This document shows, piece by piece, positions 20,375-36,005 of a DNA stretch of 37,960 nt (position 1 is the first letter of the stretch; each line of letters opens with the position of its first letter). Under the pieces are notes generated by a model that was given only the letters and a program-made list of their open reading frames with translations, was not told where the DNA came from and did not search any database. The DNA lies in IMG/VR virus record IMGVR_UViG_3300046836_000218, positions 1-37,960 of that record; one strand, 5' to 3'. This stretch comes from a virus. A program made the translations under genes and the position numbers.

Positions 20375-20803
20375 TTAGGCTTGGTCTGCAACGCCTGCCA
20401 CATGCCGCAATAGGCCTGCATGAGGAACCAGATGTCCGACTGGTCCTGCCGTGTTTTTGCAATAGTCGAACCCTTGTCTGAAAGCTGCTACTTCTGTTTG
20501 TTTAACCACTGCATAGGCTATTGCCTCCATGCATTCGATTAATGATGCCGAGAACCACTCAGTACCGGCGGCTCCAATCCTCTTATCCCGCAGAGTATAG
20601 TGAGCGCCCAATTCAGCACATCGCATGCAATGAACTTCAGCAAACCATAGCAGTCTGGCTTTGGAACCTGGAGAGTAATACTTTATTCGCCATTCAGGAT
20701 TACTGCTGAGGCCAACCTTTAGCTCATCACAGCCGTCCCTGTTGGCCACGTAAACGAATCCCTGTTTGTGATATTTCCCCTCGTGCTCGCAGACTTCGCT
20801 CAT
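20375..20803 (-). CDS. T5orf172 / MUG113-type GIY-YIG-like domain protein
   Basis: GFVYVANRDGCDELKVGLSSNPEWRIKYY ... AELGAHYTLRDKRIGAAGTEWF matches the T5orf172 pattern. ATGA overlap with the int stop. Confidence 0.6.
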   Translation of the reverse strand: MSEVCEHEGKYHKQGFVYVANRDGCDELKVGLSSNPEWRIKYYSPGSKARLLWFAEVHCMRCAELGAHYTLRDKRIGAAGTEWFSASLIECMEAIAYAVVKQTEVAAFRQGFDYCKNTAGPVGHLVPHAGLLRHVAGVADQA

Positions 20804-21930
20804 GCCTTCTTCCTCTTGCTCACGAACTCCACCAATTCCGCATTAGGCGCTCGCAGCTCCATCTTCCTGCCGCCGTATCCAGTAGTCGTCCGAATGTCCG
20901 AGTGCCGCATAAGCCGTTGCTGTACCTCAATAGGCAATTCGAGCTCGCGCATCATCGATCGGTACGTATGCCTGAAGTCGTGCCAGCCCAGACTTGCAAT
21001 CTTTGGCTCAAGCTTCAAGCCCGCAGGCACCAGGTGTTTCTTTTGCATGATGCCGTTGTGGAATGGCCTGCCTGTCTTGAGGCTTTCGAATATCCAGCCA
21101 TTCATTGAAGGGTAAGTCGCTTTCCACGCCTTCAATTCATCGAGGACCTGCGGATGCAGGGGAAGCTCGTCATTCGATGCCAGGGTCTTTGTGTCTGACT
21201 GATGCTTACCCACTGATGACCCTTCGACCGACATCACCGAACTGGCAAAGTTGATATTCTCCCACTTCAGGCCGAGGACCTCTGAGACTCTCAGCCCCAG
21301 ACACATCGACAGCATGATCATCATGGAGACGTGCGGATCTGTGATCTCGCGCAGCTTCTGATACTGGTCGACGGTGATGATTGTGGCATGGCGCGTCTTC
21401 TTAGGTACACCCTTGACCCTGACAAGAGTTATGGGGTTCCGGCCAAGTTCCATATCGCCCCAGCGCATGATTGACTCAAAGAGGCAGTGAATCTCAGCCT
21501 TGATATGCAGCTTTGACCGCTTCGAATAGGGGCGTGATGGAAGGTTCTTCGTTGGCCGAGTCTCAAGCCCGTTAATCCACTTCTCCAGTTCCATGATGTT
21601 GATTGAGGCAGGGAACTTCTCTGCCCAGTCCTGCCGGAACGGGAAAAGGTTCGATCGCTTGGTGGTTGCCGTATGGGGCCTGACGTTCGTAGCTTCTTCG
21701 AGATACCTGTCGATCGCAGCGCCGATCGTCTTGGTTCCGCCGAGGGAGGCTATCTTGATGCGGTGCCTGTCGGCTTCCTGCTCCGCGTCGGACTTGGTGG
21801 GAAATTCTTTGACAGTGCCCAGCTCGATGGACTTTCTGATTCCACCTTCTCTATAGCGGAGCAGCCATAGGTCGGGCAGGGATGCGCGTTCCTTGAGCGT
21901 GACACTGCCTTTTTGGTAACTCTTGCGCAC
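20800..21930 (-). CDS. int: Tyrosine integrase
   Basis: GLRVSEVLGLKW, HDFRHTYRSMM and LMRHSDIRTTTGYG provide the catalytic R...HxxR...H...Y signature. Confidence 0.92.
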   Translation of the reverse strand: MRKSYQKGSVTLKERASLPDLWLLRYREGGIRKSIELGTVKEFPTKSDAEQEADRHRIKIASLGGTKTIGAAIDRYLEEATNVRPHTATTKRSNLFPFRQDWAEKFPASINIMELEKWINGLETRPTKNLPSRPYSKRSKLHIKAEIHCLFESIMRWGDMELGRNPITLVRVKGVPKKTRHATIITVDQYQKLREITDPHVSMMIMLSMCLGLRVSEVLGLKWENINFASSVMSVEGSSVGKHQSDTKTLASNDELPLHPQVLDELKAWKATYPSMNGWIFESLKTGRPFHNGIMQKKHLVPAGLKLEPKIASLGWHDFRHTYRSMMRELELPIEVQQRLMRHSDIRTTTGYGGRKMELRAPNAELVEFVSKRKKA

Positions 21931-23269: not shown

Positions 23270-23950
23270 TTACGGAATCAGCGGCTCGAAGGCGGCAGCC
23301 CAATCGCCTAATTCCGGCGCCTGCTCAACCGGCTCAGTCTTTACGGAATGCTTGGCAATCATGGACTCAATCTCTTCATGGAACCGTACAACCTCGGCTT
23401 CTATCTGCTGAATGCGTTCTTCATCCCTGAACATGCGCACGGTGAACAGGCGTGGCCACCGCTTCTGGCGTGGATCAAAAGATATGAAGTCGATCCACTC
23501 GCGGCCAGTGCAGGCAAGCGCCCAGGCGCACTGCGGTTCATGCTCTGGCGGAAGAATGCCAGCATCAATCCATTTGATGTGGTTCTCGGAGCGCGGGACC
23601 TTGAACTCTACGGCGCCTTCAGATCCGACCAGCCCGTCAGGACTTGAGCCGGTGAAGTCGTATTGTGGGTGCAGAATGAAGCCAACCTCATCCACGCGAT
23701 TGCCAGATTCAATCTCATATTCGGCGCGTGCGAATGGCTCGTTTTCGGTGCCAAATTGCATCTCGGTAGTTACATACCGGCTCGATATTTCGCCAGTCGT
23801 GCGCTCTGCGACGAGCTGCCGCTTGTAATCGTCACGTTTCGCCGGACCCCCGATCTTCAAAACATCCTTGATGCGGCTGCCAGTGATGCGGCCTCGGCGC
23901 TGCAACAGCCAATCGGTAGATCCCTGCTCACAAGTGATGGTTCGCATCAT
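23270..23950 (-). CDS. YqaJ-type (lambda Exo-like) recombination exonuclease
   Basis: CEQGSTDWLLQRRGRITGSRIKDVL and GSSPDGLVGSEGAVEFKVP motifs. Paired with RecT. Confidence 0.85.
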   Translation of the reverse strand: MMRTITCEQGSTDWLLQRRGRITGSRIKDVLKIGGPAKRDDYKRQLVAERTTGEISSRYVTTEMQFGTENEPFARAEYEIESGNRVDEVGFILHPQYDFTGSSPDGLVGSEGAVEFKVPRSENHIKWIDAGILPPEHEPQCAWALACTGREWIDFISFDPRQKRWPRLFTVRMFRDEERIQQIEAEVVRFHEEIESMIAKHSVKTEPVEQAPELGDWAAAFEPLIP

Positions 23951-26521: not shown

Positions 26522-27205
26522 TTATTCGCGGCTTCTTGCAATCTCCAGGACCACCGTCCCGACAATGCTTATCCCGTCATTGAGTGGATTCTCTGTGCGG
26601 AAAGCGTCATCTTCAGGGAGCAGTGCGAAACCTTCAGTGCGGTCAGCATATTTGCGCACCACCACTTCGGATTTCTGCGTCTTGGTCCTGTAAATCGCTG
26701 CAATAACCAGGTTTTTAGGCTTAGCAATGAGCCCCGGTTCGACAACAACCTTGTCGCCGACCTTTAGTCGTGGACGCATGGCATCGTCGTTTATGACGAA
26801 GACGAAGGCATCCTCTGCGAAGCTCCCATCTGTCAGGTATATCTCGCTCTGACCGCCTAATTCATGAGCTGGATGATCGATCGTGAGAACCCCGGCGGCA
26901 TCGCGCCTGATCATATCGGCAGTATAGACATTCAGGGGAACCACGCGAACGTTGAATGCGGCTCTCGGATCGTATAAATGTGACACCTCCACATTCAGGG
27001 CGTCTGCGATTCTCTTCAGGCTGCTGTGAGAAAATCCCTTCCCCGTATCCTCCACTCGCTTGATGTTCGCCTTATCCCAGCGCGGCACGCATCGCTCCCC
27101 CAGTTCCTCCAGGGACCAACACTTCTCAATCCGTAGTCTCTTTACATTCCTGCCCACAATATTTTCAAGCGATTTGTTGCCGAAATCCATGCATTGATTA
27201 TGCAT
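26522..27205 (-). CDS. CI-like repressor: XRE HTH plus S24 (LexA-like) domain with substituted catalytic Ser
   Basis: N-terminal HTH (VKRLRIEKCWSLEELGERC). The C-terminus AFVFVINDDAMRPRLKVGDKVVVEP...EVVVRKY...IVGTVV aligns to the S24 GDSMxP...GD...K pattern, but with Ala in the Ser position. Confidence 0.8.
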   Translation of the reverse strand: MHNQCMDFGNKSLENIVGRNVKRLRIEKCWSLEELGERCVPRWDKANIKRVEDTGKGFSHSSLKRIADALNVEVSHLYDPRAAFNVRVVPLNVYTADMIRRDAAGVLTIDHPAHELGGQSEIYLTDGSFAEDAFVFVINDDAMRPRLKVGDKVVVEPGLIAKPKNLVIAAIYRTKTQKSEVVVRKYADRTEGFALLPEDDAFRTENPLNDGISIVGTVVLEIARSRE

Positions 27206-29276: not shown

Positions 29277-29566
29277 CTACCTACCCCTGCAAGCATTGCC
29301 AGAAGCCCATCACTCGCCTGAAGTCCTGCCTTGACTGTCGCCTGATCGAGTCTCAGGCCGTGAAGGCGAATGCCCAGACGTTGCGTGAAGAGTGGGCTGA
29401 GAGTTTTGCGGATCGTCAGTCGCGGAAGGAAGCGCGCCGCGAGTACCGCAGGAAGATCGGCATCACTGCGAAGGCTACCACGCGAATGACTCCGCGCATG
29501 CTGAATCAGCTTTTGAAGTGCAAGGACGATGCCGCAAGGCGAATTCTTCTGGGGAAATCGGCATGA
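29273..29566 (+). CDS. Hypothetical Zn-ribbon / basic protein
   Basis: CKHCQKPITRLKSCLDC. ATGA-coupled at both ends. Confidence 0.55.
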   Translation: MTTYPCKHCQKPITRLKSCLDCRLIESQAVKANAQTLREEWAESFADRQSRKEARREYRRKIGITAKATTRMTPRMLNQLLKCKDDAARRILLGKSA

Positions 29567-31050
29567 CCTATGGATCGGTTTGCAGCGGAATCGAGGCAGC
29601 ATCTGCGGCATGGGAGCCGATGGGCTGGAATGCTTCGTTCTTTGCCGAGATTGAGAAGTTCCCGTCGTCAGTTCTCAATCACCATTACCCGGAGGTTCCT
29701 AATGTCGGAGACTTTAGTCGAATTGCAACTGTTCTCAATCATGCCGATGAACAGCGGCAAGGACTACAAGGCGCGGCGGGTGGATGTGGCGCAGCCTCTG
29801 ATGACATCTCAGGTCGGCGGGAATCAGGGCGGGGATTATGTGGTGATAGTGCCGCCGAGTGGGGTGCAAATCTCCAGAGAGGAGCAATCGACCTTCTGGT
29901 CGGAGGAACACCTTGCCAGGATTTCTCAGTCGCCGGACTGCGAGCGGGAATGGACGGAGCGCGTGGTCAGCTCACCATCGAGTTTGCTAACCTTGCTGGC
30001 AGACTACGGCCCCGATGGCTGGTATGGGAGAACGTCCCCGGCGTCCTGTCGATTGATGGAGGAAGGGCGTTTGGAACCTTTCTCGGACTCCTGGGGCAAC
30101 TCGGGTATGGGGTCGCCTACCGAGTTCTTAACGCTCAACACTTCGGAGTTCCACAGCGCCGCCGTCGCGTCTTCGTTGTCGGACATCTTGGAGACTGGCG
30201 ACGTGCCGCAGCGGTACTTTTTGAGCGCAACAGCATGTCGGGGCATCCTGCGCCGCGCAGAGAAACGGGGCAAGCGGCTACCGGAGGCTTTACGTTTGGC
30301 ATTGACGAAGAGTGCAACGTCTCAGATGACCAGTTCGGCCCACTGCTTCGAGGTGGACAAGGCGGAACCCGTCAAGCTGTCGCCAGTACCGGAGATGTTA
30401 GCTGCGTCCATGTAGCACCTACGCTGCGAGCTGGAGGTAATCGGACGGGCGGAGATCGGCCACCGGGAACGGATGTGGACACCTGCGAGACGCTGATTGC
30501 CCACTCCCTCCGCGGCGAGGGCTTCGATGCCAGCGAGGACGGTACGGGGAGGGGAACGCCGCTGGTTACCGCTTTCTCCGCTAAGGATTACGGAGCCGAT
30601 GCAACGGAAGGGCTAACTCCCACACTTCGCGCTGGTGGATTCGATAAGAGTCACGCTAACAGCGGCAACTGGATGGCGGTGGCTATCCAGAACGCAACAC
30701 GCGGCAAGGATCAGAATGGCCTTGGCGTAAGCGATGACGGCAGCATGTACACGCTCGATCAGGGAAGCCAACATGCGGTGGCGTTCGGTGCGCAGATGAG
30801 CACTCCGCATTGGCAGCATGACCTGAGCGACACACTACAAGCCAAGAACCCCAAGGCTGTGCAGTTCGGAATGGCAGTGCGGCGTCTGACTCCCCGCGAG
30901 TGCGAACGCCTACAGGGATTCACCGACGACTACACAAAGATCAGCGACAAGACAGCAGATGGGCCCAGATACAAGGCACTCGGTAACTCCTTTGCCGTTC
31001 CGGTTGTTCGCTGGATAGGCGAGCGAATCCAGATGGTGGAGAACTTATGA
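29563..31050 (+). CDS. DNA (cytosine-5) methyltransferase (orphan)
   Basis: Motifs seen: GSVCSGIEAAS (I), GGTPCQDFSVAG (IV), LVWENVPGV (VI), QRRRRVFVVG (VIII), LTPRECERLQGF (IX), GNSFAVPVVRWI (X). No restriction endonuclease gene was recognised nearby. Confidence 0.9.
   Translation: MTYGSVCSGIEAASAAWEPMGWNASFFAEIEKFPSSVLNHHYPEVPNVGDFSRIATVLNHADEQRQGLQGAAGGCGAASDDISGRRESGRGLCGDSAAEWGANLQRGAIDLLVGGTPCQDFSVAGLRAGMDGARGQLTIEFANLAGRLRPRWLVWENVPGVLSIDGGRAFGTFLGLLGQLGYGVAYRVLNAQHFGVPQRRRRVFVVGHLGDWRRAAAVLFERNSMSGHPAPRRETGQAATGGFTFGIDEECNVSDDQFGPLLRGGQGGTRQAVASTGDVSCVHVAPTLRAGGNRTGGDRPPGTDVDTCETLIAHSLRGEGFDASEDGTGRGTPLVTAFSAKDYGADATEGLTPTLRAGGFDKSHANSGNWMAVAIQNATRGKDQNGLGVSDDGSMYTLDQGSQHAVAFGAQMSTPHWQHDLSDTLQAKNPKAVQFGMAVRRLTPRECERLQGFTDDYTKISDKTADGPRYKALGNSFAVPVVRWIGERIQMVENL
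29702..30415 (+). CDS. Candidate overprinted ORF in an alternative frame of the methyltransferase gene
   Basis: The frame is open over 29570..30415 (281 codons). An internal ATG at 29702 has GGAGG at 29691..29695 (6-nt spacer). The translation looks protein-like. Unverified. Confidence 0.3.
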   Translation: MSETLVELQLFSIMPMNSGKDYKARRVDVAQPLMTSQVGGNQGGDYVVIVPPSGVQISREEQSTFWSEEHLARISQSPDCEREWTERVVSSPSSLLTLLADYGPDGWYGRTSPASCRLMEEGRLEPFSDSWGNSGMGSPTEFLTLNTSEFHSAAVASSLSDILETGDVPQRYFLSATACRGILRRAEKRGKRLPEALRLALTKSATSQMTSSAHCFEVDKAEPVKLSPVPEMLAASM

Positions 31051-31110: not shown

Positions 31111-31614
31111 ATGCCAAGCGAAGCGATCGCGAACTCGGAGATCAGAAGCCTGATGGAACTGAGCAGCCCGAAGGACAGGCAAATGATTGAGATCACGCTG
31201 CACGGCATCAGCGCCGCACCACAAGGCTCAGGCCGCGCCATGCTGATCGGCGGCAAGGCTCGCTTCATAGGCACATCAAGCAATGCCGGCGGAAAGCGAT
31301 TACGGGCTTACAGGGGCGCTCTGAGCAATCAGGCTAGGCAAACCCTCATCCGCAACGGCAAGATGCAGCCCTGGGCCAAAAAACACGTTCCGCTGTGCCT
31401 TGAGATTACGTTCTTCTTCGTTCCGCCGAAGAGTATGCCGAAGAAGCGCAGGGGAATGGTTGTAACTCCCGACGTCGATAAATGTATCCGGAGCACGCTC
31501 GATTCTCTGACTGGAATTCTGTTTCACGACGACGCGCAGGTTGTCTCGGTTGTAGCCAGGAAGCTATATGCCAGTTTTGATGGTGTTCGTATCGAAGCAA
31601 GGGAAGCGGCATGA
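31111..31614 (+). CDS. rusA: RusA-family Holliday junction resolvase
   Basis: TPDVDKCIRSTLDSLTGILFHDDAQVVSVVARKLY matches the RusA PDxDN...D(D/S)...K pattern. The true start may be ATG 31183 (MIEITLHG, AAGGA upstream). Confidence 0.75.
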   Translation: MPSEAIANSEIRSLMELSSPKDRQMIEITLHGISAAPQGSGRAMLIGGKARFIGTSSNAGGKRLRAYRGALSNQARQTLIRNGKMQPWAKKHVPLCLEITFFFVPPKSMPKKRRGMVVTPDVDKCIRSTLDSLTGILFHDDAQVVSVVARKLYASFDGVRIEAREAA

Positions 31615-31748
31615 TCTGGCTCATCGGCATGATCTGCCTGCTCGAAGCCTGCGCCATCATCCTGCTCTTCATCAACCGCAGCGTCATCCTCAACCACTTA
31701 GACAACACCCACGAAGAAATCTGCAGACTGCAAAGGAAAATCAAATGA
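31611..31748 (+). CDS. 45-aa single-TM micro-protein
   Basis: MIWLIGMICLLEACAIILLFINRS... Its ATGA overlaps the rusA stop, and its stop overlaps the ssb ATG (ATGA). Confidence 0.45.
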   Translation: MIWLIGMICLLEACAIILLFINRSVILNHLDNTHEEICRLQRKIK

Positions 31749-32155
31749 GTAAGGGAATCAACAAAGTAATTTTGATGGGCCACATTGGCAAAGATCCAGA
31801 GATCCGCACCGCTGCCGGTGGAGCCCTGATAGCAAACCTTACCCTTGCAACCAACGACCGCCGCAAGGGGCCCGACGGCACGTATACAGACGTCAGCGAA
31901 TGGCACGCACTGACTGCCTTCAGCCGTATTGCCGAACTCTGCCGCGACTACGTCAAGAAGGGCAGCCAGGTATTCATCGAAGGCAAACTCCAAACTCGAA
32001 GCTGGGACGATAAGGAATCAGGGCAGAAGAAGTACAAAACCGAAATCCTTGTCAATGAACTCACCCTGATCGGCGGCAAGGGTAAGCAGGAGCCCGAGAC
32101 TGAAGCAAACGTCCACGGGCAGCACATCACGGACGATGATCTGCCACCGTTCTAG
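31745..32155 (+). CDS. ssb: Single-stranded DNA-binding protein
   Basis: MSKGINKVILMGHIGKDPEIR...WH...FIEGKLQTRSWDDK...K(Y)KTEI, with an acidic tail DDDLPPF. AAAGGA RBS. Confidence 0.9.
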   Translation: MSKGINKVILMGHIGKDPEIRTAAGGALIANLTLATNDRRKGPDGTYTDVSEWHALTAFSRIAELCRDYVKKGSQVFIEGKLQTRSWDDKESGQKKYKTEILVNELTLIGGKGKQEPETEANVHGQHITDDDLPPF

Positions 32156-34541: not shown

Positions 34542-36005
34542 GTGAAGGGTAGCCTGACCGCAGACGAACTGGAACTGGCAGCGGATATAGGAAGCTTCTC
34601 GCTCGATCCTGTCGGCTTCGTCAAGTACGTCTTCCCATGGGAGTCGGAGAACTTCAAGAGCATCGGGCCCAGGGCATGGCAGATGGAATTTCTGGATGTG
34701 ATCAAGGCTCACCTTCAGAACCCCGAGACACGATGCCAGCCGCTGCAGCTCGCCGTCGCATCAGGACATTCGATAGGTAAGTCAGCCCTGATCTCGATGA
34801 TTATGGCGTGGGGAATGAGTACCTGCGAAGACTGCAAGATTGTCGTTACGGCAGGCACAGGGACACAGTTAGCCACGAAGACGGCTCCAGAGGTCCAGAA
34901 GTGGTTCAGGATGGCGATCAATACGCATTGGTGGGACATCAATGCACAGTCCATCAGAGTAAAAGATCCGCTGCACCAGGCAATGTGGCGAGCAGACTTT
35001 ATTACATGGTCAGTGCAGAAGACTGAAGCATTTGCCGGTCTGCATAATCAGGACAAGCGCATCATCATCATCTTCGATGAAGCCAGTTCGATCGATGACA
35101 TGATCTGGCAGGTGACTGAAGGCGCTCTGGTTGACGAGAACACAGAGATTATCTGGATTGCGTTTGGGAATCCTACACGCAATTCGGGAGCGTTCTACCA
35201 GGCAGTGACAGGCGCAAACCGATGGAAGCCGCGGCAGATCGATGCTCGGACGGTAGAGGGAACCAACAAGGTTCTGCTGGATGCGCAGATCAAAGAGTGG
35301 GGCGAAGACTCGGACAGGGCAAGAGTACGAATCCGAGGCGAGTTTCCTCGTGGTGGGTCAACCCAGTTTATCTCTGGCGATCTGGTTGCTGCGGCTCGTA
35401 AGCGGGTTGTCGATGGTCATGAGAAGATGCCGATCATTCTGGGAGTCGATGTAGCCAGGTTCGGCGATGACCGTTCCGTTGTATGCAAGCGGCAGGGACG
35501 TAAGGCTGAGTTCATAGGCAAGTTCTACGGCATTGATACGCAGGTCCTGGGTGGCAAGGTGCAGGAGTTTATCGACGCCGAGCAGCCTGATGCAGTTGTG
35601 ATCGACGGTGACGGCATTGGTGGGGCTGTATACGACTTCCTGAAGGCTCGCGGATACGACCGTAAGACGGTGATGGTTGAGTTCCATGGTGGAGCAACGC
35701 CAGCCGATCCGCATAAGTATCTGAACCGCCGTGCTGAGGTATGGGGCGAGATGAAGGACTGGCTTCAGGGTGCGCAGATACCTGATGAGGCTGAGATTGA
35801 GACAGATCTGACAGGACCGGATTATGGCTATCACCCGACAAAGGGCTGCCTGGTTCTTGAGAAGAAGGACGAGATGAAGGCACGCGGCGTAGACAGCCCT
35901 GATCTGGGCGACTCGCTGGCGATGTCATTTGCAGTCAAGATCGCACCGAAACGCAAGGCACCAGAGCCTGAAGCCTATTACGGCTCAGACGGCTGGATGG
36001 CATAA
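34542..36005 (+). CDS. terL: Terminase large subunit
   Basis: Walker A-like VASGHSIGKSAL, Walker B IIIIFDEAS, and a nuclease-domain GVDVARFGDDRSV. GTG start. Confidence 0.85.
   Translation: MKGSLTADELELAADIGSFSLDPVGFVKYVFPWESENFKSIGPRAWQMEFLDVIKAHLQNPETRCQPLQLAVASGHSIGKSALISMIMAWGMSTCEDCKIVVTAGTGTQLATKTAPEVQKWFRMAINTHWWDINAQSIRVKDPLHQAMWRADFITWSVQKTEAFAGLHNQDKRIIIIFDEASSIDDMIWQVTEGALVDENTEIIWIAFGNPTRNSGAFYQAVTGANRWKPRQIDARTVEGTNKVLLDAQIKEWGEDSDRARVRIRGEFPRGGSTQFISGDLVAAARKRVVDGHEKMPIILGVDVARFGDDRSVVCKRQGRKAEFIGKFYGIDTQVLGGKVQEFIDAEQPDAVVIDGDGIGGAVYDFLKARGYDRKTVMVEFHGGATPADPHKYLNRRAEVWGEMKDWLQGAQIPDEAEIETDLTGPDYGYHPTKGCLVLEKKDEMKARGVDSPDLGDSLAMSFAVKIAPKRKAPEPEAYYGSDGWMA

What the first reader, a model, noticed from the sequence alone, without database searches (positions are those of the whole stretch)
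29570..30415. Long alternative-frame ORF with its own GGAGG-ATG nested inside the C5-methyltransferase gene: possible overprinted gene
The methyltransferase frame keeps all the canonical motifs (I, IV, VI, VIII, IX, X). A second frame nevertheless stays open for 846 nt, the longest off-frame ORF in the window (other shadow ORFs here reach about 195-220 codons). An in-frame ATG at 29702 is preceded by GGAGG (29691..29695) with a 6-nt spacer.

In the first ~170 nt of overlap the MTase frame reads as low-complexity filler: LNHADEQRQGLQGAAGGCGAASDDISGRRESGRGLCGDSAAEWGANLQRGA. This sits between motif I and motif IV, and from memory of related phage Dcm-type enzymes the segment is tens of residues longer than usual. 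The alternative frame over the same nucleotides reads like normal protein: MSETLVELQLFSIMPMNSGKDYKARRVDVAQPLMTSQVGGNQGGDYVVIVPP.

Further on, the alternative frame gives WGNSGMGSPTEFLTLNTSEFHSAAVASSLSDILETGDVPQRYFLSATACRGILRRAEKRGKRLPEALRLAL while the same nucleotides encode motifs VI-VIII. I have a recollection, which I cannot verify, that sequences of this type are annotated in other mobile elements. That would fit either a conserved dual-coding arrangement or recurrent mis-annotation of the shadow frame. If real, this is a hidden gene inside an orphan methyltransferase.
Basis: partly seen in the sequence, partly recalled or inferred. Interest (0 to 1): 0.7.

Follow-up and report, generated by a model that had tools for sequence, protein, structure and literature searches.

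The report
Conserved hidden gene inside phage methyltransferase
The second reading frame inside this phage DNA cytosine methyltransferase gene is a real, selected protein-coding gene found in thousands of related genes (including phage P1 dmt), and it probably encodes a small partner piece of the enzyme itself, so these enzymes may need two proteins made from one stretch of DNA.

Summary
Window 29570-30415 is a 281-codon ORF in the +1 frame of the C5-methyltransferase gene (29563-31050). GGAGG-N6-ATG sits at 29691-29704.

It is not a GC shadow. In 81 MTase-selected homologous loci the +1 frame shows 1 stop where about 235 are expected. It stays open in genes with GC3 as low as 0.24-0.28. MTase fourfold-site divergence falls from about 0.6 to 0.14-0.46 exactly over the ORF. 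An OLGenie-type alt-frame dN/dS is 0.56, against about 1 in controls. An ATG with an SD-like element is conserved upstream (59 loci against 16 expected).

The ORF is always nested in an MTase. It occurs in phage P1 dmt, mycobacteriophage Omega, and Streptococcus, Vibrio and Firmicutes phages. It corresponds to phrog_16143.

Its conserved C-terminal module (LSDILE..KYFLS..helix) matches the segment that ordinary single-chain C5-MTases carry in-frame after motif VIII. The two placements were never seen together. In split relatives the same domain is the N-terminus of the TRD/IX/X chain.

Best reading: a small trans-acting subunit, analogous to the nested beta of M.EcoHK31I but not identical to it. 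Its function is inferred, not shown.

In this window the ORF is lengthened by an out-of-frame TRD fragment inserted between motifs I and IV.

The parts
29563..31050 (+). C5 cytosine DNA methyltransferase gene (frame 0, 495 aa). Motif I 29572-29598, IV 29902-29928, VI 30028-30042, VIII 30154-30183, IX 30880-30921, X 30982-31005. No restriction enzyme was seen beside it, so it is an orphan enzyme in the phage replication/recombination module.
29570..30415 (+). Nested ORF in the +1 frame (281 codons from the first ATG; stop codon 30413-30415).
29691..29704 (+). Probable translation start of the nested gene in this window: GGAGG (29691-29695), 6-nt spacer, ATG (29702-29704), giving a 237-aa product. 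It is homologous to the 'class B' start used in 7 relatives. The commoner start (ATG 8-9 codons before motif IV) is absent here: the window reads ..REEQSTFW.. where relatives read M.EQSTFW.
29723..29845 (+). Window-specific insertion derived from a TRD module of a related MTase. In the +1 frame it reads LQLFSIMPMNSGKDYKARRVDVAQPLMTSQVGGNQGGDYVV, 75-84% identical to segments that L168, L087, L133 and L109 carry in their MTase frame at residues ~370-420. In the MTase frame here it is stop-free low-complexity filler (the extra MTase residues 56-108 span 29728-29886). It lengthens both proteins by about 45 residues. The coordinates are the minimum extent given by tblastn.
29879..30172 (+). Conserved N-terminal half of the nested protein (EEQSTFWSEEHLA...TSEFHSAAVAS), overprinted on MTase motifs IV-VIII. 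It is S/P-rich with low predicted-structure confidence. MTase synonymous sites are constrained here.
30173..30304 (+). Conserved C-terminal module of the nested protein (SLSDILETGDVPQRYFLSATACRGILRRAEKRGKRLPEALRLAL). It is a confident helical module (pLDDT 83-96) and overlaps MTase motif VIII and the 40 codons after it. Over MTase residues 226-245 the +1 peptide is more conserved than the MTase peptide (0.83 vs 0.58, then 0.52 vs 0.33), and the MTase fourfold-site difference reaches its minimum of 0.14 (residues 226-240). It resembles the canonical post-motif-VIII segment of single-chain C5-MTases.
30305..30412 (+). Non-conserved C-terminal tail of the nested protein. Its length is variable among homologues, and synonymous constraint on the MTase frame ends here.

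Best explanation
The +1 ORF is a genuine protein-coding gene nested inside the methyltransferase gene. It is translated from its own internal SD-ATG on the MTase mRNA. In this window that is GGAGG-N6-ATG at 29691-29704. In most relatives it is an ATG 8-9 codons before motif IV.

The product is about 160 aa in relatives. Here it is 237 aa, because an out-of-frame TRD fragment was inserted upstream of the core. It has two parts:
- a poorly ordered N-terminal half, overprinted on catalytic motifs IV-VIII;
- a well-folded basic helical C-terminal module (LSDILE - x5 - YFLS - helix GILRRAEKRGK - helix).

That module corresponds to the segment which ordinary single-chain C5-MTases carry in-frame about 25 residues after motif VIII, at the entry to the small (target-recognition) domain. 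MTases with the nested ORF lack this segment in their own frame.

I therefore infer that the nested protein works with the MTase as a small trans-acting subunit that supplies this element. This makes the enzyme a two-polypeptide C5-MTase encoded in two frames of the same DNA. It is analogous to M.EcoHK31I (alpha plus nested beta) and related to split enzymes of the M.AquI type.

In some relatives a frame change downstream of the module fuses the nested protein to the TRD and motifs IX-X. This gives a true split enzyme: alpha = motifs I-VIII; beta = nested domain + TRD + IX + X.

Shown: the ORF is conserved, under purifying selection, has conserved start signals, is always nested, and is fused to the TRD chain in split relatives. 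The element's placement in frame 0 or in the +1 frame was never seen together in one gene.

Inferred: that the ORF is translated, that its product binds the MTase, and that it is needed for activity.

My confidence that it is a real selected coding gene is about 0.93. My confidence in the subunit role is about 0.5.
For: (1) ORF conservation.
- 80/81 MTase-ascertained loci from many phyla are open in +1 from at least 12 codons before motif IV to 55-97 codons after motif VIII. That is 1 stop against 234.8 expected.
- 25 diverse low-GC viral loci show 0 stops against 132.5 expected. 50 ordinary MTases in the same set fit the null (349 against 361.6).
- All 79 IPP53-type loci (GC3 0.28-0.43) have the ORF.
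- It is present in P1 dmt, Javan105, Omega gp127, a Vibrio phage and an Oscillospiraceae phage, always at +1.

(2) Selection.
- MTase fourfold-site pairwise difference is 0.58-0.68 outside the ORF, even in motifs I, IX and X. It is 0.14-0.46 inside, with boundaries that match the ORF.
- The alt-frame pNN/pNS ratio is 0.56 [0.43-0.71]. The +1 frame elsewhere in the gene gives 0.91-1.05, and the +2 frame gives at least 1.1.
- The +1 peptide is more conserved than the MTase peptide at MTase residues 226-245.

(3) Start signals. An ATG lies in the 18 codons before motif IV in 76/79 loci (47.6 expected). An ATG with an SD-like element occurs in 59 loci (16.2 expected). P1 has GGAG-N7-ATG.

(4) Always nested. 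74 of 75 alt-ascertained viral loci have motifs IV, VI and VIII in the -1 frame.

(5) Link to the enzyme.
- The element L.DILE..V..KYFLS is in +1 in 71/81 family loci and in frame 0 in 0/81.
- Among 75 diverse MTases it is in +1 in 22 and in frame 0 in 9. It is never in both.
- hhalign of the nested-product profile against the canonical MTase profile gives a single hit at the predicted place (canonical positions 172-212), with pairwise P=2e-4 and probability 46%. The window-type profile gives a weaker hit at the same place (P=0.03).

(6) Split relatives. L177 (two samples) and L342 (19 contigs) encode alpha (I-VIII, then a stop) plus a +1 beta chain (nested domain + TRD + IX + X). Dozens of such clusters exist. 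phrog_1008 is a whole family of +1-frame C-terminal chains.

(7) Precedent. [quoted passage not shown] Silencing its start codons abolishes activity (PMC2836561). Fragment complementation is general in C5-MTases (PMC3404938).
Against: - There is no direct evidence of translation or of a physical or functional interaction. No Ribo-seq or proteomics could be consulted.
- The similarity to the canonical post-VIII segment is short (about 40 residues). It is moderate statistically (probability 46%) and not significant for the window-type profile (probability 1.6%). No similarity to E. coli Dcm was detected.
- 44 of 75 diverse MTases match the element regex in neither frame. The element is therefore either not universal or too loosely captured, which weakens the complementarity argument.
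- AlphaFold models of the nested protein and of the split beta chain are low-confidence overall (mean pLDDT 62 and 57) and give no docking information.
- Foldseek and the PDB sequence search find nothing.
- It is unexplained how the same nucleotides came to encode both the motif VIII strand and the canonical downstream element.
- Some 'fused' forms may be assembly artefacts. L341 and L179 come from long-read-type contigs and shift frame in a G-run.
- One locus (L069) has a truncated nested ORF beside an apparently intact MTase.
Confidence: 0.55

Rival explanations
1. The nested ORF is a real, translated gene, but its product has an independent function that only needs to be co-inherited and co-expressed with the MTase. 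Examples are a regulator of MTase timing, an inhibitor of modification-dependent (Type IV) restriction, or a DNA/RNA-binding early protein. The likeness to the canonical post-VIII segment would then be convergent or coincidental.
For: All the evidence for coding and selection applies equally. The confident part is a small basic helical module that could bind nucleic acid. The similarity to the canonical MTase segment is only moderate. No family or structure match constrains the function.
Against: The strictly complementary placement of the L.DILE..KYFLS element, in frame 0 or in +1 but never both. The recurrent, independent fusions of the nested domain to the TRD/IX/X chain in the canonical order of a C5-MTase small domain. 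No stand-alone copy away from an MTase was seen.
Confidence: 0.28
2. In unsplit genes such as this one the nested ORF is not expressed as a separate protein. It is kept open because lineages switch between unsplit and split forms by frameshifts (for example in G-runs). In the split state the +1 frame becomes the N-terminus of the essential beta chain.
For: Split and unsplit forms are both common and have different junctions. Several junctions lie in the G-run within the ACRGIL codons.
Against: Conserved ATG plus SD-like signals occur in unsplit genes far above expectation. The C-terminal module up to ..LP..L..AL is conserved in unsplit genes, although several split junctions remove part of it. 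The ORF ends consistently 55-97 codons after motif VIII.
Confidence: 0.08
3. There is no second protein. The open frame and the synonymous constraint reflect composition (GC-driven shadow ORF), an RNA or DNA element, or recent recombination of the catalytic core.
For: The window itself is 56-60% GC in this region. Other shadow ORFs of about 200 codons exist in the window. The compared loci are phylogenetically related.
Against: The ORF persists at GC3 0.24-0.43. The shuffle null is calibrated on ordinary MTases. The +2 frame has excess stops. Where MTase amino-acid identity is only 0.53, its fourfold sites differ by only 0.14. Recombination or an RNA structure does not predict that, and neither predicts stop-codon avoidance or amino-acid-level conservation of the +1 peptide between Streptococcus, Escherichia and Acidobacteria phages.
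Confidence: 0.03
4. The +1 frame is read by programmed ribosomal frameshifting, either from the MTase frame or back into it, to make an isoform rather than a separate protein.
For: Fused alt+TRD+IX-X proteins exist.
Against: Only 15/80 loci have a canonical slippery heptamer near the 3' end of the nested ORF, and none is conserved across the family. The fused forms are explained by genomic frame changes. [quoted passage not shown]
Confidence: 0.03

Closest known systems
M.EcoHK31I (alpha + beta; beta encoded entirely within the alpha gene in another reading frame; Lee, Kam & Shaw 1995, as described in PMC2836561 and PMC3404938)
   Same: It is a C5-MTase gene with a second ORF wholly nested on the same strand in a different frame. 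The nested product is a part of the enzyme, and its N-terminal part serves mainly for association. Silencing the nested starts without changing alpha abolishes activity, which is exactly the experiment needed here.
   Different: There beta carries motif IX and alpha lacks it. Here the MTase frame keeps motifs IX and X, and the nested product never has motif IX (0/30). Instead it carries the post-motif-VIII L.DILE..KYFLS element and overlaps motifs IV-VIII. M.EcoHK31I belongs to a restriction-modification system and is described as an exception. The family here consists of orphan phage/MGE enzymes numbering thousands. Sequence relatedness to beta could not be tested because the sequence is not held.
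M.AquI-type split C5-MTases (alpha = motifs I-VIII + part of the variable region; beta = rest + IX-X) and artificial fragment complementation of M.BspRI, M.BsuRI, M.HhaI and M.SssI (PMC3404938)
   Same: Relatives L177 and L342 and the phrog_1008 family (Peaches gp77/gp76) are split between motif VIII and the TRD into two chains that presumably assemble. The break point lies in the region known to tolerate bisection.
   Different: In this window the MTase is one continuous ORF. In the split relatives the beta ORF overlaps alpha by about 155 codons in the +1 frame, rather than by a short junction overlap.
phrog_16143 ('DNA methyltransferase', 139-aa profile) and thousands of 'hypothetical protein' gene calls
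   Same: This is the same protein family. The IPP53 nested ORF matches end-to-end (1.5e-56). Omega (5e-11), Pitbull (1e-19) and the window product (1.1e-5) also match.
   Different: The PHROG label treats it as an ordinary MTase gene. Nothing in the library or in the literature I could search recognises it as a nested +1 ORF.
dcm-vsr overlap in E. coli
   Same: A C5-MTase gene overlaps on the same strand with a functionally linked gene.
   Different: The overlap there is about 20 nt at the 3' end, not a nested ORF. The nested product here has no Vsr (or any Pfam) match.
Overprinted genes of viruses, and long overlapping genes proposed in bacteria (e.g. PMC8850804, PMC8227390)
   Same: One DNA stretch has two frames under selection. 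The part laid over the constrained old gene is poorly ordered, and the distribution is narrower than that of the host gene family.
   Different: Most proposed bacterial cases are antisense and lineage-restricted. This one is same-strand, about 150 codons long and spans several phyla. Its structured part appears related to a segment of the host enzyme family rather than being wholly de novo.

Membership tests
C5 cytosine DNA methyltransferase (PF00145), the host gene | Motifs I (FxGxG-type), IV (PCQ), VI (ENV), VIII (QxRxR), IX (RE..RLQGF) and X (GNS) in one frame | tested here: met
   PF00145 E=2.5e-51.
M.EcoHK31I-type two-polypeptide C5-MTase | A second ORF lies entirely within the MTase gene, on the same strand, in a different frame | tested here: met
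   29570-30415 lies within 29563-31050, in the +1 frame. It is conserved in homologues.
M.EcoHK31I-type two-polypeptide C5-MTase | The nested chain carries motif IX and the large chain lacks it | tested here: not met
   The window MTase frame has RRLTPRECERLQGF at 30880-30921. Nested products have motif IX in 0/30.
M.EcoHK31I-type two-polypeptide C5-MTase | Both polypeptides are required for methylation and they associate physically | not testable with these tools
   This needs silent knock-outs and biochemistry. The precedent experiments are in PMC2836561.
M.EcoHK31I-type two-polypeptide C5-MTase | Sequence homology of the nested product to M.EcoHK31I beta | not tested
M.AquI-type split C5-MTase | Two separate ORFs divide the enzyme between motif VIII and motif IX | tested here: not met
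   The window has one ORF containing all motifs. The feature is met in relatives L177 and L342 and in Peaches gp77/gp76.
phrog_16143 (nested-ORF protein family) | A significant match to the family profile | tested here: met
   Window product E=1.1e-5 over profile positions 62-130. Relatives score 1.5e-56 to 5e-11. A4 against A1 by hhalign gives 99.3%.
GC-driven shadow ORF (artefact) | The frame is interrupted in most homologues, especially low-GC ones, and stop counts fit a synonymous-shuffle null | tested here: not met
   1 stop against 234.8 expected. 0 against 132.5 at mean GC3 0.36.
GC-driven shadow ORF (artefact) | No excess synonymous constraint on the host frame over the ORF | tested here: not met
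   Fourfold-site difference is 0.14-0.46 inside and 0.58-0.68 outside. pNN/pNS is 0.56 against about 1 in controls.
De novo overprinted gene | The product has no homologue outside the overlap (a novel sequence) | tested here: inconclusive
   The N-terminal half has no match anywhere. The C-terminal module aligns with the canonical in-frame post-VIII segment at P=2e-4, probability 46%.
Vsr-like partner of Dcm | Vsr endonuclease domain (PF03852) | tested here: not met
   No Pfam or NCBIfam hit at E<=1.

The most novel reading that the evidence does not exclude
A large, cross-phylum clade of phage and mobile-element C5-methyltransferases, including phage P1 Dmt, mycobacteriophage cluster J enzymes and many Streptococcus prophage enzymes, are obligate two-polypeptide enzymes. 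In them about 450 nt encode catalytic motifs IV-VIII in one frame. In the +1 frame the same nucleotides encode a small subunit that supplies the small-domain entry element (L.DILE..KYFLS..helix), which the main chain has lost.

The arrangement would have arisen by a deletion or frameshift after motif VIII. That event made a split enzyme with a long overprinted beta N-terminus, followed in many lineages by re-fusion of the main chain.

Codon-optimised or sub-cloned versions of these genes that destroy the nested ORF would then be inactive.
Probability: 0.45. Interest if true: 0.85.

Novelty: new variant of a known kind. Interest (0 to 1): 0.75.

Why it matters
**For the overlapping-gene field.** Long same-strand nested genes with strong comparative support are very rare in bacteria and phages. 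This one is about 150 codons and is conserved from Firmicutes to Actinobacteria to Proteobacteria phages. It also has a tractable model in phage P1: the predicted nested gene lies at NC_005856 66728-67201, with GGAG-N7-ATG.

**For DNA methylation and restriction-modification work.** M.EcoHK31I has been treated as a curiosity. If the nested product is a subunit, two-frame heterodimeric C5-MTases are common among orphan phage enzymes. Their activity and specificity could not then be studied, predicted or engineered from the annotated ORF alone.

**For annotation.** Gene callers frequently pick the nested ORF plus a C-terminal MTase fragment instead of the full MTase. This produces thousands of 'hypothetical proteins' and truncated MTases, while curated records omit the nested gene altogether. 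Either way one of the two products is lost.

Tried and rejected
- **Family and structure searches on the nested product found nothing usable.** Pfam, NCBIfam and a PDB sequence-profile search gave no hit. Foldseek of the AF2 model against the PDB and BFVD gave nothing significant. The best BFVD hits were a Mycobacterium phage Thibault ORF and a podovirus MTase, which are probably the same nested family.
- **AF2 of the nested core and of the split beta chain was uninformative.** Only the C-terminal helical module and the motif IX-X region are confident, so there is no information on domain packing. The third fold search was not spent on that model.
- **Programmed -1 frameshift back into the MTase frame was rejected.** A slippery heptamer occurs in only 15/80 loci.
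- **A Vsr-like function was rejected** (no domain match).
- **Similarity to E. coli Dcm:** none was detected.
- **The long 'alt + PF00145' proteins were first dismissed as sequencing errors.** Some probably are (L179 is multiply frameshifted; L341 shifts in a G-run on a nanopore-type contig). L177/L178 and L342 are reproducible across samples and are clean split enzymes.
- **A stand-alone copy of the nested protein away from an MTase** was not found in 75 alt-ascertained viral loci or among the long representatives.
- **Source gene calls for the window:** the look-up through P0001 returned nothing on record.
- **Literature:** eight full-text searches found no description of this nested ORF, including a search for its peptide motifs. 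The M.EcoHK31I original paper and the supplements of PMC2836561 are not held.
Full report
**1. The observation**

The window encodes a C5 cytosine methyltransferase at 29563-31050 (+, 495 aa). It matches PF00145 at E=2.5e-51 and phrog_116, and carries motifs I, IV, VI, VIII, IX and X. In its +1 frame an ORF runs from 29570 to 30415 (281 codons). GGAGG lies at 29691-29695 and is followed after 6 nt by ATG 29702, which gives a 237-aa product. This is the longest off-frame ORF in the window; the next are 220, 215 and 204 codons. The source annotation called the 237-aa product a 'hypothetical protein' (P0001).

**2. Is it more than chance?**

I collected 80 homologous loci from one genome per species, using only MTase-frame peptides as bait. 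They come from Acidobacteriota, Alpha-, Beta- and Gammaproteobacteria, Planctomycetota and others, and their MTases are about 40-50% identical overall.

In all but one locus (L069) the +1 frame is open from at least 12 codons upstream of motif IV to 55-97 codons past motif VIII. The +2 frame is broken everywhere. GC3 ranges from 0.42 to 0.78.

I built a null that keeps each MTase protein and its codon usage but shuffles synonymous codons. It expects 234.8 stops in this segment across the 81 loci; I observed 1. It expects 3.95 open loci; I observed 80. The +2 frame has more stops than expected (443 against 344).

**3. Selection**

On a codon alignment of the 81 MTases I measured the pairwise difference at fourfold-degenerate sites with identical amino acids.
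- Outside the ORF it is 0.58-0.68. This includes the most conserved segments: motif I (amino-acid identity 0.74) and motifs IX/X (0.84-0.90).
- Over window MTase residues 106-245 it falls to 0.14-0.46. It returns to about 0.63 by residue 256.
- The minimum (0.14) is at residues 226-240, where MTase amino-acid identity is only 0.53.

Over MTase residues 226-245 the +1 peptide (RGILRRAEKRGKRLPEALRL) is more conserved than the MTase peptide: 0.83 against 0.58, then 0.52 against 0.33. Under equally conserved MTase segments elsewhere, +1 identity is only 0.30-0.38.

An OLGenie-style estimator gives an alt-frame pNN/pNS of 0.56 (bootstrap 0.43-0.71) inside the overlap. The +1 frame in three control regions gives 0.95, 1.05 and 0.91. 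The +2 frame gives 1.1-1.7.

Recent recombination or an RNA structure would not give stop avoidance, a high MTase dN with a low dS, or conservation of the +1 peptide.

**4. Start signals**

78 of 81 loci have an alt-frame ATG 4-19 codons before motif IV, mostly at -8 or -9 (M.EQSTFW.., MQLSIFS..), often with AAGGA or GGAG 7-10 nt upstream.

Against the shuffle null:
- an ATG in that interval occurs in 76/79 loci (47.6 expected);
- an ATG with an SD-like 4-mer occurs in 59 loci (16.2 expected).

The window lacks the common ATG and reads ..REEQSTFW... Its ATG 29702 with GGAGG corresponds to the alternative start used as the only ATG in seven relatives (L005, L006, L013, L029, L040, L043, L073). 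There the SD is formed by the 'YPEVP' codons.

**5. What is special in the window**

Between that start and the conserved core lies extra sequence that most homologues lack. Read in the +1 frame it is LQLFSIMPMNSGKDYKARRVDVAQPLMTSQVGGNQGGDYVV. This is 75-84% identical to segments that L168, Caulobacter phage DMCA (L087), L133 and L109 carry in their MTase frame at residues ~370-420, which is a target-recognition module.

So a TRD fragment has been inserted between motifs I and IV, out of frame for the MTase and in frame for the nested ORF. In the MTase frame it reads as stop-free low-complexity filler, and the same frame has stops in the other loci. It also explains why the ORF here is 281 codons rather than the usual ~165.

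**6. Distribution**

- The nested product finds 2168 clusters at 90% identity.
- As a profile it finds 5272 representatives at 50% identity; 3491 of these are at E<=1e-10. Most are 150-250 aa.
- In L001 and L002 the full MTase ORF is intact, but the gene caller chose the nested ORF plus a C-terminal MTase fragment.
- Of 75 viral loci ascertained through the nested protein, 74 have motifs IV, VI and VIII in the -1 frame. No stand-alone copy was seen.
- In GenBank phages the +1 translation of the window segment matches 133 records, while the MTase translation of the same DNA matches 1486.
- All six phage cases inspected are +1 ORFs inside the annotated MTase-like CDS (annotated 'hypothetical protein' in the Oscillospiraceae phage). 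None is annotated separately. They are Caulobacter DMCA, mycobacteriophage Omega gp127 (157 aa), an Oscillospiraceae phage (134 aa), phage P1 dmt (163 codons open; GGAG-N7-ATG; GC3 0.43), Streptococcus phage Javan105 (135 codons; GC3 0.28) and a Vibrio phage.

**7. Controls outside the detected subfamily**

- Citrobacter phage CfP1 and Pseudomonas phage PfAC20 MTases have a broken +1 frame.
- Streptococcus phage IPP53 (GC3 0.34) and Arthrobacter phage Pitbull have 160-167-codon +1 ORFs of the same kind.
- phrog_16143, labelled 'DNA methyltransferase', turns out to be this nested family. The IPP53 ORF matches it at 1.5e-56 end-to-end, Pitbull at 1e-19, Omega at 5e-11 and the window at 1e-5.
- In a heterogeneous set of 75 viral C5-MTases, 25 are of the nested type (mean GC3 0.36). 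They show 0 stops against 132.5 expected. The other 50 fit the null, with 349 stops against 361.6 expected.
- All 79 IPP53-type loci carry the ORF.
- The low-GC nested products are diverged (29-52% identity) and are homologous to the window type (hhalign 99.3%). Part of that is expected, because they are +1 readings of homologous genes.

**8. What the product is**

No Pfam, NCBIfam or PDB sequence match was found, and no significant fold match. AlphaFold is confident only for the C-terminal ~45 residues, which form three helices (SLSDILE / SATACRGILRRAEK / PEALRLAL; pLDDT 83-96). The N-terminal half, which lies over motifs IV-VIII, is low-confidence.

The C-terminal module has the form L-S-D-I-L-E-x2-V-x2-K-Y-F-L-S-helix. 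Ordinary single-chain C5-MTases have a near-identical element in their own frame about 25 residues after motif VIII, at the entry to the small domain. Examples are CfP1 VGDILEDADDSYTLSDNAWKGF and other viral enzymes with LKDILEKSVDPKFFLS or LRDVLEAQVGEKYYLS.

The distribution is complementary:
- In the window family the element is in +1 in 71/81 loci and in frame 0 in 0/81.
- In the diverse set it is in +1 in 22 loci and in frame 0 in 9. It is never in both. Another 44 match the regex in neither frame.

Profile-profile comparison of the low-GC nested products with an M.NlaX-like MTase profile gives a single hit exactly there (nested 110-149 on canonical 172-212; pairwise P=2e-4, probability 46%). 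The window-type profile hits the same place weakly (P=0.03). I treat this as moderate support, not proof.

**9. Split relatives**

P0065 (325 aa) is encoded identically on contigs from two samples. At its locus (L177) the MTase frame carries motifs I-VIII and stops 65 residues after motif VIII. The +1 ORF carries the complete nested domain and continues into the TRD and motifs IX and X. L342 (P0175, 19 contigs) is similar, with a different junction.

A search with P0065 returns dozens of clusters of 274-460 aa that cover it fully. Some such forms are probably artefacts: L179 and L341.

In mycobacteriophage Peaches the C-terminal half of the MTase (gp76, phrog_1008) is likewise in the +1 frame of the N-terminal half (gp77).

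In these split enzymes the chain order is nested domain, then L.DILE..YFLS module, then TRD, IX and X. This reproduces the canonical order of a C5-MTase after motif VIII.

**10. Known precedent**

M.EcoHK31I consists of alpha and beta chains. [quoted passage not shown]' Removing beta's start codons by changes silent in alpha abolishes methylation, and the N-terminal ~40-70 residues of beta mainly provide association (PMC2836561). M.AquI is split into alpha (I-VIII) and beta (IX-X), and several monomeric C5-MTases tolerate bisection in the proximal variable region (PMC3404938).

The present case differs. The nested product never carries motif IX (0/30) and the main chain keeps IX and X. It is therefore not the M.EcoHK31I arrangement, but it is a variant of the same principle.

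Eight full-text searches, including a search for the peptide motifs, found no description of this nested ORF. Subscription literature and REBASE could not be searched.

**11. Mechanism proposed**

*Shown:*
- the ORF is a conserved, selected, always-nested +1 ORF with conserved initiation signals;
- its structured part lies over the least constrained part of the MTase frame;
- it is covalently part of the TRD chain in split relatives.

*Inferred:*
- it is translated by internal initiation on the MTase mRNA;
- the small protein associates with the MTase and supplies the small-domain entry element that the main chain lacks.

*A possible history (inference only):*
- a deletion with a frame change just after QxRxR brought the L.DILE segment into overlap with the motif VIII strand. 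The -1 reading of LSDILE codons gives ..VGHLG, which is compatible with that strand;
- this created a split enzyme whose beta ORF extended upstream by overprinting;
- later frame changes re-fused the main chain and left the short nested gene.

A programmed frameshift isoform is not supported.

**12. Context**

The window is a temperate phage genome. It has a portal, a head-closure protein, a large terminase, an integrase, a repressor, a RecE-like exonuclease, SSB and RusA. The MTase lies in the replication/recombination module and no restriction enzyme was seen beside it.

**13. Verdict**

Probability that the nested ORF is a selected protein-coding gene: about 0.93. Probability that it acts as a subunit or structural partner of the MTase: about 0.5. 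An independent function is the main rival, at about 0.3.

It is a new variant of a known but supposedly exceptional kind (the nested beta of M.EcoHK31I). It appears to be widespread and unrecognised, with phage P1 as a ready experimental model.

Noticed in passing
L088 (phage P1, NC_005856) locus 2219-2710 = record 66710-67201; ATG at locus 2237 = record 66728: P1 dmt contains the nested +1 ORF: 163 codons open, with GGAG-N7-ATG, and a predicted 157-aa product MQLTTNGLSP...LQSVAKA. It is not annotated in the P1 record. P1 would be a convenient experimental model.
   Followed up: partly
L173 (Mycobacterium phage Peaches) 1358-2101; gp77 1009-1542, gp76 1520-2104: The MTase is annotated as two CDS, and gp76 is in the +1 frame of gp77. 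The +1 frame is open about 55 codons upstream of the annotated gp76 start. The phrog_1008 profile extends a further ~80 positions N-terminally, so the annotated start may be too far downstream.
   Followed up: partly
L175 (Gordonia phage Jabberwocky gp4) CDS 1015-2349, +1 frame codons 113-217: The +1 frame reads a typical actinophage MTase TRD peptide (TLPTPRATDGTKGGPNQRGSSGDRMLPSAV). The annotated frame reads low-complexity sequence over the same stretch. This may be an unrecognised frame change or a two-chain arrangement.
   Followed up: no
L085 (Mycobacterium phage Omega) gp127 1152-1895 and gp128 1902-2456: The MTase is split into two CDS in the same frame, separated by a stop codon. The nested +1 ORF (1327-1800, 157 aa) lies inside gp127.
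   Followed up: no
window 30235-30245 (tcggggcatcc, the ACRGIL codons of the nested ORF); P0177, P0397/L341: Several 'fused' relatives switch from the nested frame to the MTase frame exactly at this G-run. This could be homopolymer sequencing error in long-read assemblies, or a natural frameshift-prone (phase-variable) site.
   Followed up: partly
L001 4001-4504 and L002 4001-4471: The gene callers chose the nested ORF plus a C-terminal MTase fragment although the full MTase ORF is intact. This systematic mis-call inflates 'hypothetical protein' families and truncates MTases in metagenome catalogues.
   Followed up: partly
L069 (Burkholderiales MAG contig JANMGB010000390.1): This is the only one of 81 MTase-ascertained loci with a stop inside the nested ORF (truncated at 56 aa). 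Its MTase ORF (479 aa) looks intact. It could be a real loss or a sequencing error.
   Followed up: no
81 homologous loci, motif IV-10 to motif VIII+55, +2 frame: The +2 frame has more stops than the synonymous-shuffle null predicts (443 against 344). This may be a side effect of codon choices imposed by the +1 frame.
   Followed up: no
window 1-37960: The contig looks like a complete, circularly permuted temperate phage genome. The large terminase is at 34542-36005 and the portal at 15-1274. The integrase is at 20800-21930 (-), the repressor at 26522-27205 (-), a RecE-like exonuclease at 23270-23950 (-), RusA at 31111-31614 and SSB at 31568-32155.
   Followed up: partly
L203 (IMGVR_UViG_3300045595_000420): This high-GC (GC3 0.77) MTase carries the L.DILD..KYTLT element in its own frame and also has a 197-codon open +1 frame without the element. 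It is a likely true GC shadow ORF and a useful contrast case.
   Followed up: no
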